Notes: generated by a model not told the origin, from the letters alone. A DNA stretch of 4,008 nucleotides from a virus (IMGVR_UViG_3300014784_000118); one strand, 5' to 3'; positions 50-3,926 are shown, numbered from the stretch's first letter. Made by a program: numbers and translations.

Positions 50-250
50 ATGGTTGCCGTAAATCATATACCACACCTTGTACACACACAAACGGCCTTT
101 GTGTGGCGTTTTCTGGCACTGAGTGCCGGAGAATCCCAAATCATCCACGTAACCGCCTGGACGGAACGCGAAGCGCGTAGTCGTTGCCCGTCCGGTTGTG
201 TTGCTGTATTCGCTGCAAAAATCCGCCAGGGAGAAACCTATGCACAATAA
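50..250 (+). CDS. hypothetical protein (66 aa)
   Basis: ATG at 50 preceded by a strong Shine-Dalgarno AGGAG (41-45). Same strand as the neighbouring genes, and its end overlaps the next start by 11 nt. An upstream gene appears to end at TAA 22-24. No recognisable motifs. Confidence 0.4.
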   Translation: MVAVNHIPHLVHTQTAFVWRFLALSAGESQIIHVTAWTEREARSRCPSGCVAVFAAKIRQGETYAQ

Positions 251-695: not shown

Positions 696-995
696 ATGAA
701 ACTTAAATATTCTGGCTTAACTGCCAGTGGCAAAACTCGCACTAAATTCATGCGCGGTGATATTTACCGCGACCAGTACGGCGGCACGGTAATGATTAAG
801 GGCGTGGCGGGACGGTGCGTAACTTACCGCCGTGAAGGTTACGAATATGATTGCGTGATGCCTGTTTATCAGTTCCGGCGTGATTTTTCTCTGGTACAGA
901 CCGCGCCGCATAACGTGCCCACCAGCAACGCCAGGGCACGGGCAAACATCCAGAAGCTGAAAACCATGGTTAACGGATTCAGGGGCAAGAAATGA
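696..995 (+). CDS. hypothetical protein (99 aa), translationally coupled to rep
   Basis: ATG at 696 with SD GGAGA (682-686). Its stop TGA (993-995) overlaps the rep start ATG (992-994) as ATGA. The protein is basic with G/R/Y-rich segments; no family assignment is possible by eye. Confidence 0.55.
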   Translation: MKLKYSGLTASGKTRTKFMRGDIYRDQYGGTVMIKGVAGRCVTYRREGYEYDCVMPVYQFRRDFSLVQTAPHNVPTSNARARANIQKLKTMVNGFRGKK

Positions 996-2392
996 AAAGC
1001 GCACCGAACTTAAAAAAACAGCCTTACGACAAGATGACCGAAGTCATTATTTTTGCGGGTAGTGATGCCTGGGCACATGCGAAACAGTGGCAGGAACAGG
1101 ACGGGCGACTGGCTGGCGATAATGTGCCTCCCGTTGTGCTGGCTGATGATCAACTGGATGAACTGGCAGACCTGAGAATCATCGACGAGGGGCGCTATTG
1201 TGTCCGGCTGTACAAGGCAGGCCACATCAGGCCATCAAATATTAATGCCATTGCGCACAAGCTGGCGGCGGCGGGTGTAACTGATGCGAATTATTACCCC
1301 GAAGGGATGCACAGCCATATGCGGGAGAACTGGCGCGAATACCTGGAACGGGTGCGCGGGAAAGAGCCGGCGGAAGAAAAAAACCACCAGCGAAAAACCA
1401 CGCTACCGATGAGCGTTGGATCTACCGGATACGACACGCAACTGGATTACGTGGTTAAGGGGATTATTCCGGCGGTATCGCTATGCAGCATATACGGGGC
1501 TAGCGGGTCCTATAAATCATTCCTTGCCGGATCGTGGGCGTGCCATGTTGCCACTGGTCGCCAGTGGGGAGGCCGCAGGGTTGCACATGGTGCGGTTCTC
1601 TATGTGGTTGGTGAAGGCGGTATCGGCGTTCCGCGTCGTGTAAAAGCCTGGGAGGTTGTGCACGGTGAGCAGGTGAAAAATCTGTATCTGGTAAACCGTC
1701 CCATCTTTCCGGCTGTCCCGCTTGATGTTGATGAACTGGTTATTGCTGCCAGTCAGGTGGAGAGGGAAACGGGTAAACCTGTTCGCATGATTATTCTGGA
1801 CACGCTGGCGCGCTGCTTTGGCGGCAATGATGAAAATGACTCCCGCGACATGGGGGCGTTTATCCGTGGGTGTGACGAACTGAAACGACGCACAGGGGCC
1901 ACGGTGCTGGTGGTTCACCATTCCGGCAAGGATGAGACGAAAGGCGCGCGCGGTTCCAGTGCATTTCGTGCATCACTGGATGCTGAATACCGGATACGCA
2001 GGGAGGACGCAGGAAGCGAAGCGCTGGTTATCTCATGCACCAAAATGAAGGACGCGGAGGAACTCAAAGAAGCCGCATATGACTTACGCGTGGTGGAGCT
2101 TTTTACCGACGCTGACGGGGAGTTAATCACGTCGCTGGTGGTGGTGGATAAGCCGCGCCCTCCCGTTGAACTGGAGCGCATCGAGGAGGCAGGCAACAAG
2201 ACGGAAAACCATACCGCGCTATGGGGGTGCATACGTTCACGCACACAGCACGGCGACAAGTGCACGATCCCGCTGTTACGTGACGATATGAAAAAGCTGG
2301 GGTATGACACAAAACACCTTAAACGATGGTTAGCCAAACTGGAAAAAGACGACGTGATCTACATTGACGGTGATGATGTAGGACCACTGTAA
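992..2392 (+). CDS. replication initiator / RepA-like AAA-type (RecA-fold) ATPase-helicase, 466 aa
   Basis: Walker A GASGSYKS at nt 1496-1519 (aa 169-176). Walker B hydrophobic run plus Asp (RMIILDT, D270 at nt 1799-1801). HHSGK motif (aa 309-313), typical of RepA/DnaB-like AAA_25 helicases. The C-terminal about 60 aa is basic and helical, consistent with a winged-helix DNA-binding domain. An iteron array lies immediately 3' of the stop codon. The N-terminal about 140 aa has no motif I can recognise. Confidence 0.8.
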   Translation: MKSAPNLKKQPYDKMTEVIIFAGSDAWAHAKQWQEQDGRLAGDNVPPVVLADDQLDELADLRIIDEGRYCVRLYKAGHIRPSNINAIAHKLAAAGVTDANYYPEGMHSHMRENWREYLERVRGKEPAEEKNHQRKTTLPMSVGSTGYDTQLDYVVKGIIPAVSLCSIYGASGSYKSFLAGSWACHVATGRQWGGRRVAHGAVLYVVGEGGIGVPRRVKAWEVVHGEQVKNLYLVNRPIFPAVPLDVDELVIAASQVERETGKPVRMIILDTLARCFGGNDENDSRDMGAFIRGCDELKRRTGATVLVVHHSGKDETKGARGSSAFRASLDAEYRIRREDAGSEALVISCTKMKDAEELKEAAYDLRVVELFTDADGELITSLVVVDKPRPPVELERIEEAGNKTENHTALWGCIRSRTQHGDKCTIPLLRDDMKKLGYDTKHLKRWLAKLEKDDVIYIDGDDVGPL

Positions 2393-2591
2393 AAAGTGGG
2401 CATTAAAAGTGGGAAAGGTGGGAAATTTAACGTAATTTTAACAAAATTACCCACTTTCCCACGTGTATATATCCCAAAAAGTGGGCACTAAAAAAATACC
2501 TATGAAACAAGATGATATAAATCCCAAATTTCCCACGTTGGACGAAGTGGGAAAACGTAAAAAGTGGGCGAAAAAAGTGGGTAGAGGTGGG
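2393..2591. repeat. iteron array / putative origin of replication (ori)
   Basis: Direct repeats with an (A)nAGTGGG or AGGTGGG core: GTGGG at 2396-2400, 2409-2413, 2418-2422, 2481-2485, 2547-2551, 2564-2568, 2577-2581, 2587-2591. Inverted copies with a CCCAC core at 2450-2457, 2455-2463 and 2529-2537. AT-rich spacer 2423-2449 (aaatttaacgtaattttaacaaaatta), a possible unwinding element. An ATCCCAAA 8-mer is repeated at 2471-2478 and 2521-2528. The position right after rep matches the usual ori placement in PICIs and iteron plasmids. Confidence 0.7.
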
Positions 2592-2594
2592 CAA

Positions 2595-2846
2595 ATGACT
2601 CAAAAACACAGAGACAGAACAGAGCCAAAATATAAAGCGTTAGACATGACAGAGCACGCCTTAAAGGTGGCAATCAGAACGATAGACCGCCACGCGGGGG
2701 AAGGATACGCGAAGGAACATCCCGACCTGATAAGCGCATTCATGACCACGACGGCGGCAAATTTTGCCACGCTGACAGAGCGGGAGATTGCGGAAGCTGA
2801 ACAGGTGACAACCATCAACGTTAAAAACGTAGAGGTGGAATCATGA
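2595..2846 (+). CDS. hypothetical protein (83 aa)
   Basis: ATG at 2595 preceded by GAGGTGGG (2584-2591), which serves as SD and is also the last iteron copy. The stop TGA 2844-2846 overlaps the ssb start ATG 2843 (ATGA coupling). The in-frame upstream start at 2463 would translate the iterons and is rejected. Confidence 0.55.
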   Translation: MTQKHRDRTEPKYKALDMTEHALKVAIRTIDRHAGEGYAKEHPDLISAFMTTTAANFATLTEREIAEAEQVTTINVKNVEVES

Positions 2847-3265
2847 CAGCACAGATAGCGGCTTACGGGCGGCTGGTGGCTGACCCACAGTTAAAGACCA
2901 CCAGCAAGGGCACACAAATGACGATGGCGAGTATGGCTGTCCCCCTGCCGTGCAGCCAGGCAGATGACGGAACGGCTACGATGTGGTTATCCGTCCTGGC
3001 GTTTGGCAGACAGGCCGACGCACTGGCAAAACACCGCAAAGGCGAGCTGGTGAGCGTGGCGGGTAACATGCAGGTAAGCCAGTGGACAGGCCAGAACGGC
3101 GAAACGCGGCAGGGCTGGCAGGTTATCGCAGACAGCGTAATCAGTGCGAGAACGGCGCGACCGGGCGGCAAAAAAGGCCAGCAGGGGCAGGCTACTGACG
3201 CACTGAACAGGGCAAAACAACAGGCGGGGAATGATGATCCGTACGGGGATAACATACCGTTTTAA
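2843..3265 (+). CDS. ssb: single-stranded DNA-binding protein (SSB-like, OB-fold), 140 aa
   Basis: The N-terminal about 105 aa follows the SSB OB-fold pattern: (I/V)xxxGRLxxDPxL near the N-terminus, then WLSVLAFGRQAD...KGELVSVAGNMQVSQWTGQNGETRQGWQVIADSV, paralleling E. coli SSB WHRVVLFGKLAE...KGSQVYIEGQLRTRKW. A Gly/Gln-rich linker follows, and the C-terminal tip ...DDPYGDNIPF resembles the canonical SSB DDDIPF tail. SD GAGGTGG lies upstream. Confidence 0.8.
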   Translation: MTAQIAAYGRLVADPQLKTTSKGTQMTMASMAVPLPCSQADDGTATMWLSVLAFGRQADALAKHRKGELVSVAGNMQVSQWTGQNGETRQGWQVIADSVISARTARPGGKKGQQGQATDALNRAKQQAGNDDPYGDNIPF

Positions 3266-3280
3266 GCAACGAGTGACAGA

Positions 3281-3303
3281 AGCCGGAGAAATCCGGCTTT
3301 TTT
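3281..3303 (+). terminator. rho-independent terminator after ssb
   Basis: Perfect 7-bp stem AGCCGGA (3281-3287) / TCCGGCT (3292-3298) with a GAAA tetraloop, followed by a T-run (3298-3303), 16 nt after the ssb stop codon. Confidence 0.65.
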
Positions 3304-3507
3304 GTAGGTACTCCTGGTGGGGGTGGCCTGTCCACGGGGCGGAGGGGCGCGGAAAAAGGCGCATTTTTTGATTTTTATGGCACCATCACCACCACTATAA
3401 GTTATTGATATGTTGAGAAATAAAAATTTTTAGTGTCGAATCAGGTTGTTTTTTGTTCATCACCGGAACGTTCCCGAAAACATTTACAAAAAACAGGCGC
3501 AAAAAAA

Positions 3508-3540
3508 GCGCCCCCGATTGCTGTTACCGGAGGCGCTTTT
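3508..3540. terminator. hairpin with flanking A/T runs (possible bidirectional terminator or regulatory hairpin)
   Basis: Stem GCGCCCCC (3508-3515) / GGAGGCGC (3529-3536), 7 of 8 pairs, with a 13-nt loop. It is followed by TTTT on the + strand and preceded by A7 (3501-3507), which gives T7 on the - strand. No minus-strand gene is evident downstream to use it. Confidence 0.3.
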
Positions 3541-3638
3541 ACACGACAAAGGAGTTTTTATCGCCAGGATGACGAGTCTTAATACTGCTTCAATGGCAAA
3601 AATGCGTCAATAACTTTGCCTCTCTGAGAATAATCAGA

Positions 3639-3657
3639 AAAATCATAATCTGATTTT
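3639..3657. promoter_or_regulatory. operator-like inverted repeat upstream of the 3732 gene
   Basis: AAAATCA (3639-3645) - N5 - TGATTTT (3651-3657). It overlaps a -10-like CATAAT (3644-3649) and sits about 75 bp upstream of the ATG at 3732. Confidence 0.25.
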
Positions 3658-3731
3658 CAGGTAGAAAATGATTTATCTATTACTTTTATCGATCAATAAT
3701 GATGCCCGTTAATCAAAACGGAGGCGGATTT

Positions 3732-3926
3732 ATGCCAGAGAACAACACCAGAAAGCCGGATAAAAGTGCCACGGTACACATAGACGCCGGAACTATGGAG
3801 AAGATCGAACGCTATCAGCAGTTCATCAAAGATAATCACCCGGGTATGCCAGTACCCACGAAAGGACAAATCACACGCAGCGCGGTTGAATACTGGTACA
3901 GGGCAACGTTAGGGGTCTGGCTATGA
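3732..3926 (+). CDS. hypothetical small protein (64 aa), possible ribbon-helix-helix DNA-binding protein
   Basis: ATG at 3732 with a strong SD GGAGG (3720-3724, 7-nt spacing). The ATG at 3699 on the ORF track lacks an RBS. The pattern short beta-strand (ATVHID), helix (GTMEKIERYQQFIKDN), loop, helix (ITRSAVEYWYRA) suggests an RHH fold. Its stop overlaps the next start (ATGA at 3923-3926). Confidence 0.5.
   Translation: MPENNTRKPDKSATVHIDAGTMEKIERYQQFIKDNHPGMPVPTKGQITRSAVEYWYRATLGVWL

What the first reader, a model, noticed from the sequence alone, without database searches (positions are those of the whole stretch)
2393..2594. Iteron-type origin immediately downstream of rep: 8 direct and 3 inverted GTGGG-core repeats around an AT-rich spacer
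The density of one short motif in both orientations over about 200 bp, directly after a RepA-like helicase gene, is the signature of a Rep-binding iteron origin. It defines this locus as the autonomous replication module of a mobile element (PICI-like satellite, phage-plasmid or prophage). The irregular spacing (9-17 bp between adjacent direct copies, with two clusters at 2396-2422 and 2547-2591) and the inverted copies bracketing the AT-rich stretch 2423-2449 suggest a melting site between two Rep-binding arms. The iteron sequence and number give the Rep/ori specificity, which can help classify the element.
Basis: partly seen in the sequence, partly recalled or inferred. Interest (0 to 1): 0.7.

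Follow-up and report, generated by a model that had tools for sequence, protein, structure and literature searches.

The report
Replication origin of an E. coli phage satellite
The repeat block is real and is almost certainly the replication origin of a phage-inducible chromosomal island, a kind of origin already described for this family, and comparison with 140 relatives suggests that one amino acid of the replication protein decides which repeat word it reads.

Summary
The 202-bp gap between rep (992-2392) and the next ORF (2595) holds 8 direct and 3 inverted GTGGG cores, where about 0.5 are expected by chance. The window is the replication module of a Gram-negative PICI satellite, the same family as the published EcCI11128. 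Fillol-Salom et al. 2018 already described this ori layout for the family: two iteron sets around an AT-rich region, 3' of rep. Across 140 distinct relatives' origins, from E. coli to Xenorhabdus and Pectobacterium, the repeats keep their positions. The repeat word changes in concert at every copy: GTGGG, GTGAG, GTGCGGC or GTGGGGG. The word tracks one Rep residue, His442 in the window. His goes with GTGGG (40 of 42), Asn with GTGAG (50 of 54), and there are no crossovers. It is the only perfectly discriminating column among 471. This residue sits at the start of the recognition helix of a confidently modelled C-terminal winged-helix domain. Rep therefore looks like a self-loading helicase-initiator in the SaPI style, but built on a RecA-fold RepA-type motor (Pfam AAA_25). 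There are two AT-rich tracts, not one. The inverted copies lie on one side only of the first tract. The last repeat overlaps the ribosome-binding site of the next gene. The origin is an ordinary member of a known kind, and the one-residue specificity rule is a modest, testable addition.

The parts
992..2392 (+). rep: a 466-aa helicase-initiator. It has an N-terminal domain (about res 1-123), a RecA-fold RepA-type ATPase core (AAA_25, res 148-315 and onward) and a C-terminal winged-helix domain (res about 400-466).
   Evidence: ORF. Pfam AAA_25 E=4.9e-44. PDB 1G8Y RSF1010 RepA E=0.007. phrog_2850 matches full length. RefSeq annotates relatives as 'helicase RepA family protein'. AF2 models.
2189..2389 (+). 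Coding region of the Rep C-terminal winged-helix domain (res 400-466): helices H405-419, H426-435 and H440-452 (recognition helix), then a beta-hairpin wing at 456-465.
   Evidence: The full-length model has pLDDT 76-92 here. The domain-only model has mean pLDDT 90.7 and pTM 0.79. All top Foldseek PDB hits are winged-helix DNA-binding domains (MepR, DtxR/IdeR, Fur, LexA, H1, MCM-WH) with TM 0.64-0.71 and rmsd about 2 A, but E-values >= 0.05.
2315..2317 (+). Codon CAC = His442, the putative specificity residue that reads core base 4. It is flanked by invariant K441, R445 and W446.
   Evidence: It is the only perfectly discriminating column of 471 among 56 distinct Reps (H in 31 GTGGG-type, N in 25 GTGAG-type; next best column 75%). 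Across genera H goes with GTGGG in 40/42, N with GTGAG in 50/54, with no crossovers. Invariant neighbours.
2393..2594 (.). The whole ori: the non-coding gap between rep and the next ORF (202 bp, 62% AT).
   Evidence: A gap of the same 201-202 bp is present in all relatives examined.
2396..2422 (+). Left arm: three direct iterons with cores at 2396-2400, 2409-2413 and 2418-2422.
   Evidence: Position-conserved in relatives and switching in concert to GTGAG.
2423..2449 (.). AT-rich tract 1 (27 bp, 89% AT). It is the least stable 25-mer of the ori and one candidate melting site.
   Evidence: Nearest-neighbour dG is -24.9 kcal/mol for 2425-2449, against a window mean of -34.1 +/- 3.6. It is flanked by facing iterons (inverted repeat I1).
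2450..2462 (-). Two inverted iterons (CCCAC at 2450-2454 and 2458-2462) that face the left arm.
   Evidence: They switch to CTCAC in GAG-type relatives.
2464..2472 (.). Conserved TGTATATAT motif. It does not depend on the iteron class, and its function is unknown.
   Evidence: Its columns are as conserved as the iteron cores in the 64-sequence ori alignment. It is present as CTGTATATA or CATATATAC in Xenorhabdus, Pantoea, Phytobacter and Pectobacterium oris.
2481..2485 (+). Single direct iteron at the left edge of AT tract 2.
2486..2531 (.). AT-rich tract 2 (46 bp, 76% AT) at the centre of the ori. Its sequence varies among relatives but it stays AT-rich. It is the second candidate melting site.
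   Evidence: dG is -26.2 for 2489-2513. Mean AT is 0.74 across 65 distinct E. coli-type oris. Its columns show low conservation.
2532..2536 (-). Inverted iteron at the right edge of AT tract 2.
   Evidence: I3: 2415-2428 / 2526-2539, 93% complementary.
2547..2591 (+). Right arm: four direct iterons with cores at 2547-2551, 2564-2568, 2577-2581 and 2587-2591. The last one overlaps the SD of the next ORF.
   Evidence: The SD overlap is read directly from the sequence (GAGGTGGGCAAATG).
2595..2846 (+). 83-aa ORF of unknown function (phrog_1231), the first gene after the ori. It is not the specificity determinant.
   Evidence: It has no column that segregates with iteron type (best 85%, at the N-terminus next to the ori).
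2843..3265 (+). ssb: the satellite's own single-stranded-DNA-binding protein, a likely accessory of replication.
   Evidence: Pfam SSB E=3.7e-16. phrog_44.

Best explanation
Positions 2393-2594 are the replication origin of a Gram-negative phage-inducible chromosomal island (PICI). The 11 short iterons (core GTGGG, usually AAAGTGGG) are binding sites for the winged-helix domain at the C-terminus of the Rep protein encoded just upstream. Rep is a RecA-fold, RepA/DnaB-like hexameric helicase that carries its own origin-recognition domain, so it acts as a self-loading helicase-initiator. After helper-phage induction, Rep molecules occupy the facing iteron groups on either side of an AT-rich tract (2423-2449 and/or 2486-2531), melt it, and load themselves as helicase rings. 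Host priming and polymerase functions, together with the satellite's own SSB, then replicate the excised island. Specificity is set largely by direct readout from the first turn of the recognition helix. Residue 442 reads core base 4: His or Lys goes with G, Asn with A, Ser with C. What is shown: the existence, clustering, positional conservation and concerted switching of the repeats; the one-column covariation with Rep; the winged-helix model; the element type. What is inferred: binding, melting, helicase loading, and which AT tract opens.
For: The repeats are real and far above chance. The context is a PICI. Relatives L001 and L171 carry int - AlpA (PF05930) - icd-like - DUF4222 - rep - gap - ssb/terS - capsid gene in 9-10.5 kb. 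L171 is the published EcCI11128, and L001 sits at tqsA like the published EcCI042 and EcCIK1516. For this family, Fillol-Salom 2018 report oris 3' of rep with two iteron sets flanking an AT-rich region, and they showed rep- and ori-dependent plasmid replication for EcCICFT073. Across 168 loci (140 distinct oris) the block always follows rep with the same architecture, even at 55-70% Rep identity in other genera. The repeat word changes at all copies together. In L009 vs L010, 11 of 11 cores differ at base 4, only 2 of the other 44 core columns differ, and spacers differ at about 25%. The word tracks Rep residue 442: H with GTGGG in 40/42, N with GTGAG in 50/54, S with GTGCGGC in 7/7, K with GTGGGGG, and no crossover. 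It is the only perfect column of 471. L140 and L162 have identical last 50 residues except H/N, yet have opposite words. At least about 9 H/N switches are needed on a CTD tree. Neighbouring proteins do not co-vary. The downstream ORF has no such column, and an identical DUF4222 protein (WP_000770163.1) occurs with both words. Residue 442 lies at the N-terminus of helix 3 of a confidently modelled winged helix. His/Lys-G and Asn-A are the classical side-chain/base preferences (established knowledge). Two loci with a broken rep (L003 internal stop, L005 truncated) have partly decayed iterons. SaPI Reps work this way: a C-terminal WHD reads 5-6-nt iterons just 3' of rep (PMC9371898).
Against: There are no experimental data for this element. 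Binding, melting and replication are all inferred. Residue 442 is only 75-275 bp from the iterons, so recombination would co-transfer them as a cassette. Linkage alone therefore explains part of the association, although it does not explain the concerted change of all copies. The parsimony count rests on a short, poorly resolved tree. The fold-search E-values for the small domain are not significant (>= 0.05), and the helicase core of the full-length model is poorly predicted (mean pLDDT 66). Rep has no recognisable primase domain, so priming is unexplained. A few distant Rep homologues (L085, L090, L076, at 52-56% identity) have no repeats within 215 bp. Which of the two AT tracts melts is not resolved.
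Confidence: 0.85

Rival explanations
1. The repeats are mainly transcriptional operators. Rep's winged helix, or another regulator, would bind them to control the downstream operon (phrog_1231 - ssb - packaging/capsid genes) or to autoregulate, without origin function.
For: The block lies directly upstream of the next operon, and its last copy overlaps that ORF's RBS (sequence). A conserved TATATA-containing motif lies inside it. Winged-helix domains are typical repressors.
Against: No sigma-70-like promoter was found in 2300-2700. Eleven sites in two arms with facing copies around AT-rich tracts is the published PICI/SaPI origin layout, not an operator layout. In this family the region 3' of rep was shown to be needed for replication, for EcCICFT073. 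This role is compatible with the origin as a secondary function rather than a true alternative.
Confidence: 0.07
2. This is an origin, but the iterons are read by a different protein, such as a host, helper-phage or other satellite initiator. Rep would serve only as the helicase, as in IncQ plasmids where RepC binds the iterons and RepA unwinds.
For: The ATPase core is of the RSF1010 RepA type. No binding experiment exists.
Against: Rep carries its own C-terminal winged helix. One residue on its recognition helix is the only perfect correlate of the iteron word. The flanking proteins tested do not co-vary (an identical DUF4222 protein occurs with both words). No RepC-like gene is annotated in L001 or L171.
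Confidence: 0.05
3. The repeats are a packaging signal (pac/cos-like) recognised by a small terminase, or are recombination sites.
For: Satellites need a packaging site, and some relatives encode a TerS a few genes downstream (L009/L171).
Against: The window's close relatives L001-L003 have no terS nearby yet keep the block. The word co-varies with Rep, not with the downstream genes, which are swapped freely among relatives. The layout matches origins.
Confidence: 0.02

Closest known systems
Replication origins of Gram-negative (E. coli) PICIs, Fillol-Salom et al. 2018 (PMC6092414), e.g. EcCI11128 and EcCICFT073
   Same: The element family is the same. L009/L171 is EcCI11128 itself, and its Rep is 93% identical to residues 141-466 of the window's Rep. 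[quoted passage not shown] EcCI11128 has GTGGG cores at the same 11 positions.
   Different: The window's ori is a different allele (about 84% identical over the left half). Its flanking bases differ: GTGGG followed by C/A/T rather than GTGGGGA. The functionally tested example, EcCICFT073, was not compared here. The figure listing the published iteron sequences could not be read.
SaPI Rep / ori (SaPI1, SaPIbov1, SaPI5), self-loading helicases (PMC9371898)
   Same: A single protein is both helicase and initiator. A C-terminal winged-helix domain reads penta- or hexanucleotide iterons. There are six to twelve iterons immediately downstream of rep, an AT-rich region in the middle, and at least two iterons on each side pointing in opposite directions. 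All of these are seen here.
   Different: The motor belongs to a different superfamily. SaPI Reps are AAA+ (SF3/MCM-like) 3'->5' helicases, whereas this Rep has a RecA-fold AAA_25 / RSF1010-RepA-like core. By analogy with RSF1010 RepA (established knowledge), it is expected to move 5'->3'. No sequence similarity was detected. The shared logic looks convergent or results from domain shuffling.
IncQ plasmid RSF1010 replication system (RepA helicase, RepC initiator, RepB primase, oriV iterons)
   Same: The helicase core family is the same (Pfam AAA_25; PDB 1G8Y). The origin has iterons beside an AT-rich region.
   Different: In RSF1010 (established knowledge) a separate protein, RepC, binds about 20-bp iterons, and a dedicated primase is encoded. 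Here the DNA-reading domain is fused to the helicase. The iterons have 5-7-bp cores in 11 copies in both orientations. No RepC- or RepB-like genes are annotated.
Satellite phage P4 alpha protein with ori/crr (my own knowledge; also discussed in PMC6092414)
   Same: It is an enterobacterial satellite. One multidomain replicase has a C-terminal origin-binding domain that recognises short repeated words.
   Different: P4 alpha is a primase plus an SF3-type helicase. Its repeats are octamers split between ori and the distant crr. Neither feature is seen here.
Classical iteron plasmids (pSC101, R6K, F, P1; Rep_3-type initiators)
   Same: Repeated initiator-binding sites lie next to an AT-rich unwinding element.
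   Different: Those iterons are 17-22 bp, regularly phased, and accompanied by DnaA boxes and IHF sites. Their initiator is a WH-WH protein without helicase activity. Here there is no DnaA box, IHF site or GATC in the ori, spacing is irregular at 8-17 bp, and there is no Rep_3 domain.

Membership tests
Gram-negative PICI (Fillol-Salom 2018) | An integrase at one end, an AlpA-type regulator, and unidirectional rightward transcription. | tested here: met
   Seen in relatives that cover the window at 90-94% identity. L001 has a tyrosine recombinase, Phage_AlpA (PF05930, E=5e-18), then the replication genes all on one strand. EcCI11128/L171 shows the same. The window itself does not reach int or alpA.
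Gram-negative PICI (Fillol-Salom 2018) | [quoted passage not shown] | tested here: met
   compared with the description.
Gram-negative PICI (Fillol-Salom 2018) | Small size (about 9-15 kb) with no tail or lysis genes. | tested here: met
   In L001 the element spans about 10.5 kb between the tqsA fragments and carries only a protease/capsid fusion as a structural gene. EcCI11128 is 9.3 kb with terS and a capsid gene only.
Gram-negative PICI (Fillol-Salom 2018) | A characteristic PICI attachment site. | tested here: met
   L001 is inserted in tqsA, the site listed for EcCI042 and EcCIK1516. L171 lies next to yejM/tRNA-Pro, as listed for EcCI11128. The window's own insertion site is unknown.
Gram-negative PICI (Fillol-Salom 2018) | Helper-phage-dependent induction, replication and high-frequency packaging. 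| not testable with these tools
   This requires experiments.
SaPI-type self-loading Rep helicase/ori | Six to twelve 5-6-nt iterons immediately 3' of rep, an AT-rich centre, and at least 2 iterons on each side in opposite orientation. | tested here: met
   There are 11 cores. The pattern ->->-> AT <-<- and then -> AT <- ->->->-> is shown.
SaPI-type self-loading Rep helicase/ori | A C-terminal winged-helix domain that recognises the iterons. | tested here: inconclusive
   The winged-helix fold is modelled with pLDDT about 91, and the top fold hits are all WH domains, but E >= 0.05. Recognition is supported only by covariation and not by binding data.
SaPI-type self-loading Rep helicase/ori | An AAA+ (SF3/MCM-like) ATPase motor. 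| tested here: not met
   Pfam gives only AAA_25 (RecA-like RepA/DnaB type). The PDB sequence hit is RSF1010 RepA. The weak fold hits are RadA/Rad51/T7 gp4. It works like a SaPI Rep but is not a member.
IncQ (RSF1010) replicon | A RepA-type RecA-fold hexameric helicase. | tested here: met
   AAA_25 E=4.9e-44. 1G8Y E=0.007 over residues 150-321. The hexameric state was not tested.
IncQ (RSF1010) replicon | A separate iteron-binding initiator (RepC) and primase (RepB), with about 20-bp iterons. | tested here: not met
   No such genes are annotated in L001 or L171. The iteron cores are 5-7 bp. The DNA-binding domain is fused to the helicase.
Classical iteron plasmid origin (Rep_3 initiators) | 17-22-bp phased iterons, DnaA boxes or IHF sites, and a Rep_3 WH-WH initiator. 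| tested here: not met
   There are no DnaA boxes, IHF sites or GATC in 2300-2700. Spacing is irregular at 8-17 bp. There is no Rep_3 hit.

The most novel reading that the evidence does not exclude
A single side chain at the start of the recognition helix of Rep's C-terminal winged helix (His442 here) sets the identity of base 4 of every iteron: His or Lys with G, Asn with A, Ser with C. A one-codon change together with concerted turnover of about 11 sites would then create a new, orthogonal replicon specificity. This has happened repeatedly in a family of RecA-fold (SF4-like) self-loading helicase-initiators. These would be the structural counterpart, on a different motor, of the AAA+ SaPI Reps. 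I found no description of this rule in the searchable literature.
Probability: 0.55. Interest if true: 0.5.

Novelty: new member of a known kind. Interest (0 to 1): 0.3.

Why it matters
It fixes what this locus is: the rep-ori module of a PICI satellite. Satellites of this kind move virulence and defence genes among enterobacteria. The origin layout itself is not new. The useful addition is a concrete, cheaply testable specificity rule. The rule is Rep residue 442 His/Asn against iteron base 4 G/A, with further classes Ser/C and Lys/G. It offers a way to type PICI replicons from sequence, to predict which co-resident satellites could cross-activate each other's origins, and to engineer orthogonal Rep-ori pairs. 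It also shows that the 'helicase plus C-terminal winged helix plus 5-nt iterons' design known from staphylococcal SaPIs has been built on a different helicase superfamily.

Tried and rejected
1. Chance or low-complexity origin of the repeats is rejected by shuffles.
2. A structured RNA is rejected. The Rfam E-value scan of 2200-2800 gave only sub-threshold chance hits on the palindromic part (best 21.5 bits against a gathering score of 50).
3. A promoter or terminator in 2300-2700: none was found.
4. Host-factor sites (DnaA box, IHF consensus, GATC) in the ori: none was found.
5. The fold search with the full-length Rep model was uninformative. The model has mean pLDDT 66, no hit reached E <= 0.001, and the weak hits were RadA/Rad51/T7 gp4.
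6. The 127-aa GTG-start ORF 2463-2846 that runs through the repeats is treated as spurious. RefSeq annotates only the 83-aa form from ATG 2595, and the upstream part consists of the position-conserved repeats.
7. The downstream 83-aa ORF and the upstream DUF4222 protein were considered as alternative specificity determinants and rejected (an identical DUF4222 protein occurs with both words).
8. Apparent exceptions to the His/Asn rule were checked. L132 is an ori deletion between the arms. L087 has a frameshifted rep, so my stop call was wrong. L027, L034 and L040 carry an ATGAG variant that still has A at base 4. L031 is rearranged. L085 has no repeats within 215 bp after rep. Among K-type Reps, L076 and L090 also lack them.
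9. I considered whether co-resident satellites avoid sharing an iteron class. A glance at IMG/VR contigs from the same genome shows both same-class pairs (L116 + L153; L143 + L144) and different-class pairs (L148 + L149). This gives no support, and it was not tested systematically.
10. Literature searches for this Rep type (DUF4222 neighbour; PICI + iterons + specificity) returned nothing specific.

Full report
OBSERVATION. The window carries a 466-aa ORF at 992-2392, followed by a 202-bp gap, an 83-aa ORF at 2595-2846 and an SSB gene at 2843-3265. The gap holds GTGGG at 2396, 2409, 2418, 2481, 2547, 2564, 2577 and 2587. It holds the reverse complement CCCAC at 2450, 2458 and 2532.

The remaining 3806 bp hold 9 copies, which predicts 0.48 copies in the gap (Poisson P = 4.8e-12). 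In 20,000 composition-matched shuffles of the gap, the commonest non-AT 5-mer never exceeded 8 copies, against 11 observed. RGTGGG occurs 12 times in the window against 3.9 expected, with 0 of 200 shuffles reaching 12. Most copies extend 5' to AAAGTGGG.

WHAT THE ELEMENT IS. Megablast against complete E. coli genomes finds the window in 1,836 of 5,426 genomes, almost always on the chromosome. In the best hit (L001) the homologous region lies in a roughly 10.5-kb insertion that splits tqsA. Its genes, in order, are:
- a tyrosine integrase
- a 62-aa AlpA regulator (PF05930)
- small ORFs
- an Icd-like protein
- a DUF4222 protein
- a 'helicase RepA family protein'
- the gap
- a small ORF
- SSB
- a ClpP-protease/major-capsid fusion
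There are no tail or lysis genes.

Supplementary Table 1 of Fillol-Salom et al. 2018 lists PICIs EcCI042 and EcCIK1516 at tqsA. It also lists EcCI11128 at AP010960.1:2855234-2864550. My relative L009/L171 (NC_013364.1) lies inside EcCI11128 and has the same gene order. The window is therefore the replication module of a member of the published Gram-negative PICI family.

WHAT IS ALREADY KNOWN. The same paper states that in Gram-negative PICIs the region immediately 3' of rep is the origin. [quoted passage not shown] It also reports that plasmid maintenance driven by the EcCICFT073 replicon needs both rep and the ori.

For staphylococcal SaPIs, Rep is a self-loading helicase. Its C-terminal winged-helix domain recognises penta- or hexanucleotide iterons. 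Six to twelve of these lie just downstream of rep, with an AT-rich centre and at least two iterons on each side pointing in opposite directions (PMC9371898).

COMPARATIVE TEST. I collected 10 annotated E. coli relatives, 80 loci from other species and 80 IMG/VR contigs. For 168 loci I located the rep stop codon and took the next 215 bp, which gave 140 distinct sequences.

The block is always there, with the same layout:
- three (sometimes four) direct copies
- a 27-bp spacer
- one or two inverted copies
- a conserved TGTATATA-like motif
- one direct copy
- an AT-rich tract of about 45 bp
- sometimes an inverted copy
- three to five direct copies ending right at the start of the next ORF
This holds in Xenorhabdus, Pantoea, Kosakonia, Phytobacter, Chania and Pectobacterium at 55-70% Rep identity.

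What changes is the word: GTGGG, GTGAG, (G)TGCGGC or GTGGGGG. It changes at all copies together, in both orientations. In the colinear pair L009/L010, all 11 cores differ at base 4. Only 2 of the other 44 core columns differ, while spacers differ at about 25%. This concerted behaviour is what a set of sites read by one protein should show.

WHICH PROTEIN READS THEM. I aligned 56 distinct full-length Reps of the E. coli type, 31 with GTGGG oris and 25 with GTGAG oris. Exactly one of 471 columns separates the two groups: His versus Asn. The next best column classifies only 75% correctly (first seen).

In the window this residue is His442 (codon CAC, 2315-2317), within the motif K441-H442-L-K-R445-W446, whose K, R and W are invariant. 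Counted on distinct oris across all genera:
- His goes with GTGGG in 40 of 42.
- Asn goes with GTGAG in 50 of 54.
- Ser goes with GTGCGGC in 7 of 7.
- Lys goes with GTGGGGG-type words.
- No His/GTGAG or Asn/GTGGG case exists.

The exceptions are deletions, frameshifts, an ATGAG variant that still has A at base 4, one rearranged locus (L031) and one divergent homologue (L085) with no repeats nearby. L140 and L162 have identical last 50 residues except for His/Asn, yet have opposite words. On a neighbour-joining tree of the C-terminal domain with residue 442 masked, at least 9 His/Asn changes are needed. Shuffled states need a mean of 15.8 and a minimum of 10.

The neighbours do not co-vary. The downstream 83-aa ORF has no discriminating column. 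The identical DUF4222 protein WP_000770163.1 is found with both words. Base 6 shows a secondary covariation: G with 'EMK.F' helices, and no preference with 'DTK.L' or 'DVK.M' helices.

STRUCTURE. Pfam finds only AAA_25 (residues 148-315, E = 4.9e-44). The only PDB sequence relative is the RSF1010 RepA helicase (1G8Y, E = 0.007). An AlphaFold2 model of the full protein is mediocre overall (mean pLDDT 66) but confident for the N-terminal domain (about residues 10-120) and for residues 400-466.

Modelled alone, the C-terminal domain reaches pLDDT 90.7 and pTM 0.79. It has the topology helix, helix, helix, beta-hairpin. Every top Foldseek hit in the PDB is a winged-helix DNA-binding domain (MepR, DtxR/IdeR, Fur, LexA, histone H1, MCM WH), with TM 0.64-0.71 and rmsd about 2 A over about 62 residues. 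The E-values are >= 0.05, which is not significant for a 71-residue query.

Residue 442 lies in the first turn, or at the N-cap, of helix 3, the recognition helix. His/Lys with G and Asn with A are the classical side-chain/base preferences (established knowledge), so direct readout of base 4 is chemically plausible.

MECHANISM. I conclude, with confidence about 0.85, that 2393-2594 is the Rep-dependent origin of this PICI. Rep is a helicase that carries its own origin-recognition domain. Copies bound to facing iterons would melt an intervening AT-rich tract and load themselves as rings. The satellite's SSB (2843-3265) would coat the unwound strands. Priming must come from elsewhere, because no primase domain is detectable.

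There are two candidate melting tracts. The first is 2423-2449 (89% AT). Its 25-mer 2425-2449 has dG -24.9 kcal/mol against a window mean of -34.1 +/- 3.6. The second is the central 2486-2531 (76% AT), with dG -26.2 for 2489-2513. Each lies between iterons that point toward each other. Tract 1 is more conserved in sequence. Tract 2 is variable but stays AT-rich (mean 74% over 65 oris). I cannot decide between them.

No DnaA box, IHF consensus or GATC lies in the ori. No sigma-70-like promoter or intrinsic terminator lies there either, and no Rfam family comes near its threshold.

COMPARISON AND MEMBERSHIP. The locus is a member of the Gram-negative PICI family. Every defining feature that could be tested was met, and only induction and packaging are untestable here.

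It works like a SaPI Rep/ori: iteron number, length, position, orientation, AT-rich centre and a C-terminal winged helix. It is not a member of that protein family, because the motor is RecA-fold (AAA_25) rather than AAA+.

It shares its helicase core with IncQ RepA. It lacks the separate RepC initiator, the RepB primase and the 20-bp iterons of IncQ. It is not a classical Rep_3 iteron plasmid origin.

NOVELTY AND SCORE. The origin as such is an ordinary new member of a kind described in 2018, in the same element family. It would not surprise a specialist, so I score interest at 0.3.

The part I could not find in the literature is the one-residue/one-base specificity rule. A related point is that the SaPI-style self-loading design is here built on an SF4-like motor. 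Both are inferences from covariation and modelling. Tight physical linkage of residue 442 and the iterons (75-275 bp apart) inflates the association, although linkage does not explain the concerted change at all sites. I put the probability that residue 442 directly determines base 4 at about 0.55.

Noticed in passing
window 2464-2472 (TGTATATAT); same position in L012, L021, L038, L045, L067 and others: This motif lies between the inverted iterons and the next direct iteron. It is as conserved as the iteron cores, but it does not change with iteron class or genus (it appears as CTGTATATA or CATATATAC). Its role is unknown. It could be a melting nucleation point, a -10-like element, or a host-factor or priming site.
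   Followed up: partly
window 992-1381 (Rep residues 1-130): The N-terminal domain of Rep is shared at 53-72% identity with satellite replicases that carry quite different cores. These are annotated as 'primase-like DNA-binding domain', 'DUF5906' and 'DNA primase' (hits H81, H90, H95), and it also matches phrog_864 'DNA primase'. This suggests that an N-terminal module of unknown function is shuffled among PICI replicases. It is modelled with pLDDT 75-91.
   Followed up: partly
window 2584-2597: The last iteron (GGTGGG, 2586-2591) lies inside GAGGTGGGCAAATG, so it doubles as the Shine-Dalgarno sequence of the 83-aa ORF (phrog_1231, unknown function). In relatives the last iteron also directly precedes this ORF's ATG.
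   Followed up: no
L132 (rep stop 2916), L003 (rep 404-1813), L005 (rep fragment 1402-1809): These look like natural decay series. In L132 the ori has collapsed to three iterons, apparently by deletion between the left and right arms. L003 (rep with an internal stop) and L005 (truncated rep next to a primase-type gene) have several iterons mutated away from the consensus.
   Followed up: partly
L027, L034 (Xenorhabdus), L040 (Gilliamella), first 120 bp after rep: These loci have an ATGAG(GA) iteron variant (base 1 G->A) with an Asn-type recognition helix like that of GTGAG elements. Base 1 must therefore be read by something other than residue 442, or these origins are drifting.
   Followed up: no
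window 2466-2478 and 2516-2528: There are two 13-nt direct repeats, TATATATCCCAAA and TATAAATCCCAAA (92% identical, family D4). Each contains CCCAA, a 4-of-5 match to an inverted iteron core, so they may be degenerate extra sites. In some GAG-type relatives the corresponding bases read CTCAA (L001, L006).
   Followed up: no
window 50-250: The first ORF of the window is annotated in relatives as a 'host cell division inhibitor Icd-like protein'. It also matches PHROG 'transcriptional repressor' families (phrog_1743, E=4e-22). It is probably part of the satellite's early or regulatory region.
   Followed up: no
window 3281-3304 and 3300-3700: After ssb there is a GC-rich hairpin followed by a T run (AGCCGGA GAAA TCCGGCT TTTTT). 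I read this directly from the sequence, and the terminator scan did not list it. A non-coding stretch of about 400 bp follows, before a 75-aa ORF (3699-3926, phrog_4934) and the start at 3923 of the protease/capsid fusion gene seen in L001. The genes downstream of ssb are swapped freely among relatives (perC, mor, terS, capsid).
   Followed up: no
L013 + L018 (X. bakwenae), L015 + L025 (Xenorhabdus sp. TCT-1), L022 + L023 (X. stockiae): Single Xenorhabdus genomes carry two copies of this rep-ori module, both with Asn-type Rep and GTGAGGA iterons. Co-resident satellites therefore do not obviously avoid sharing an iteron class.
   Followed up: no
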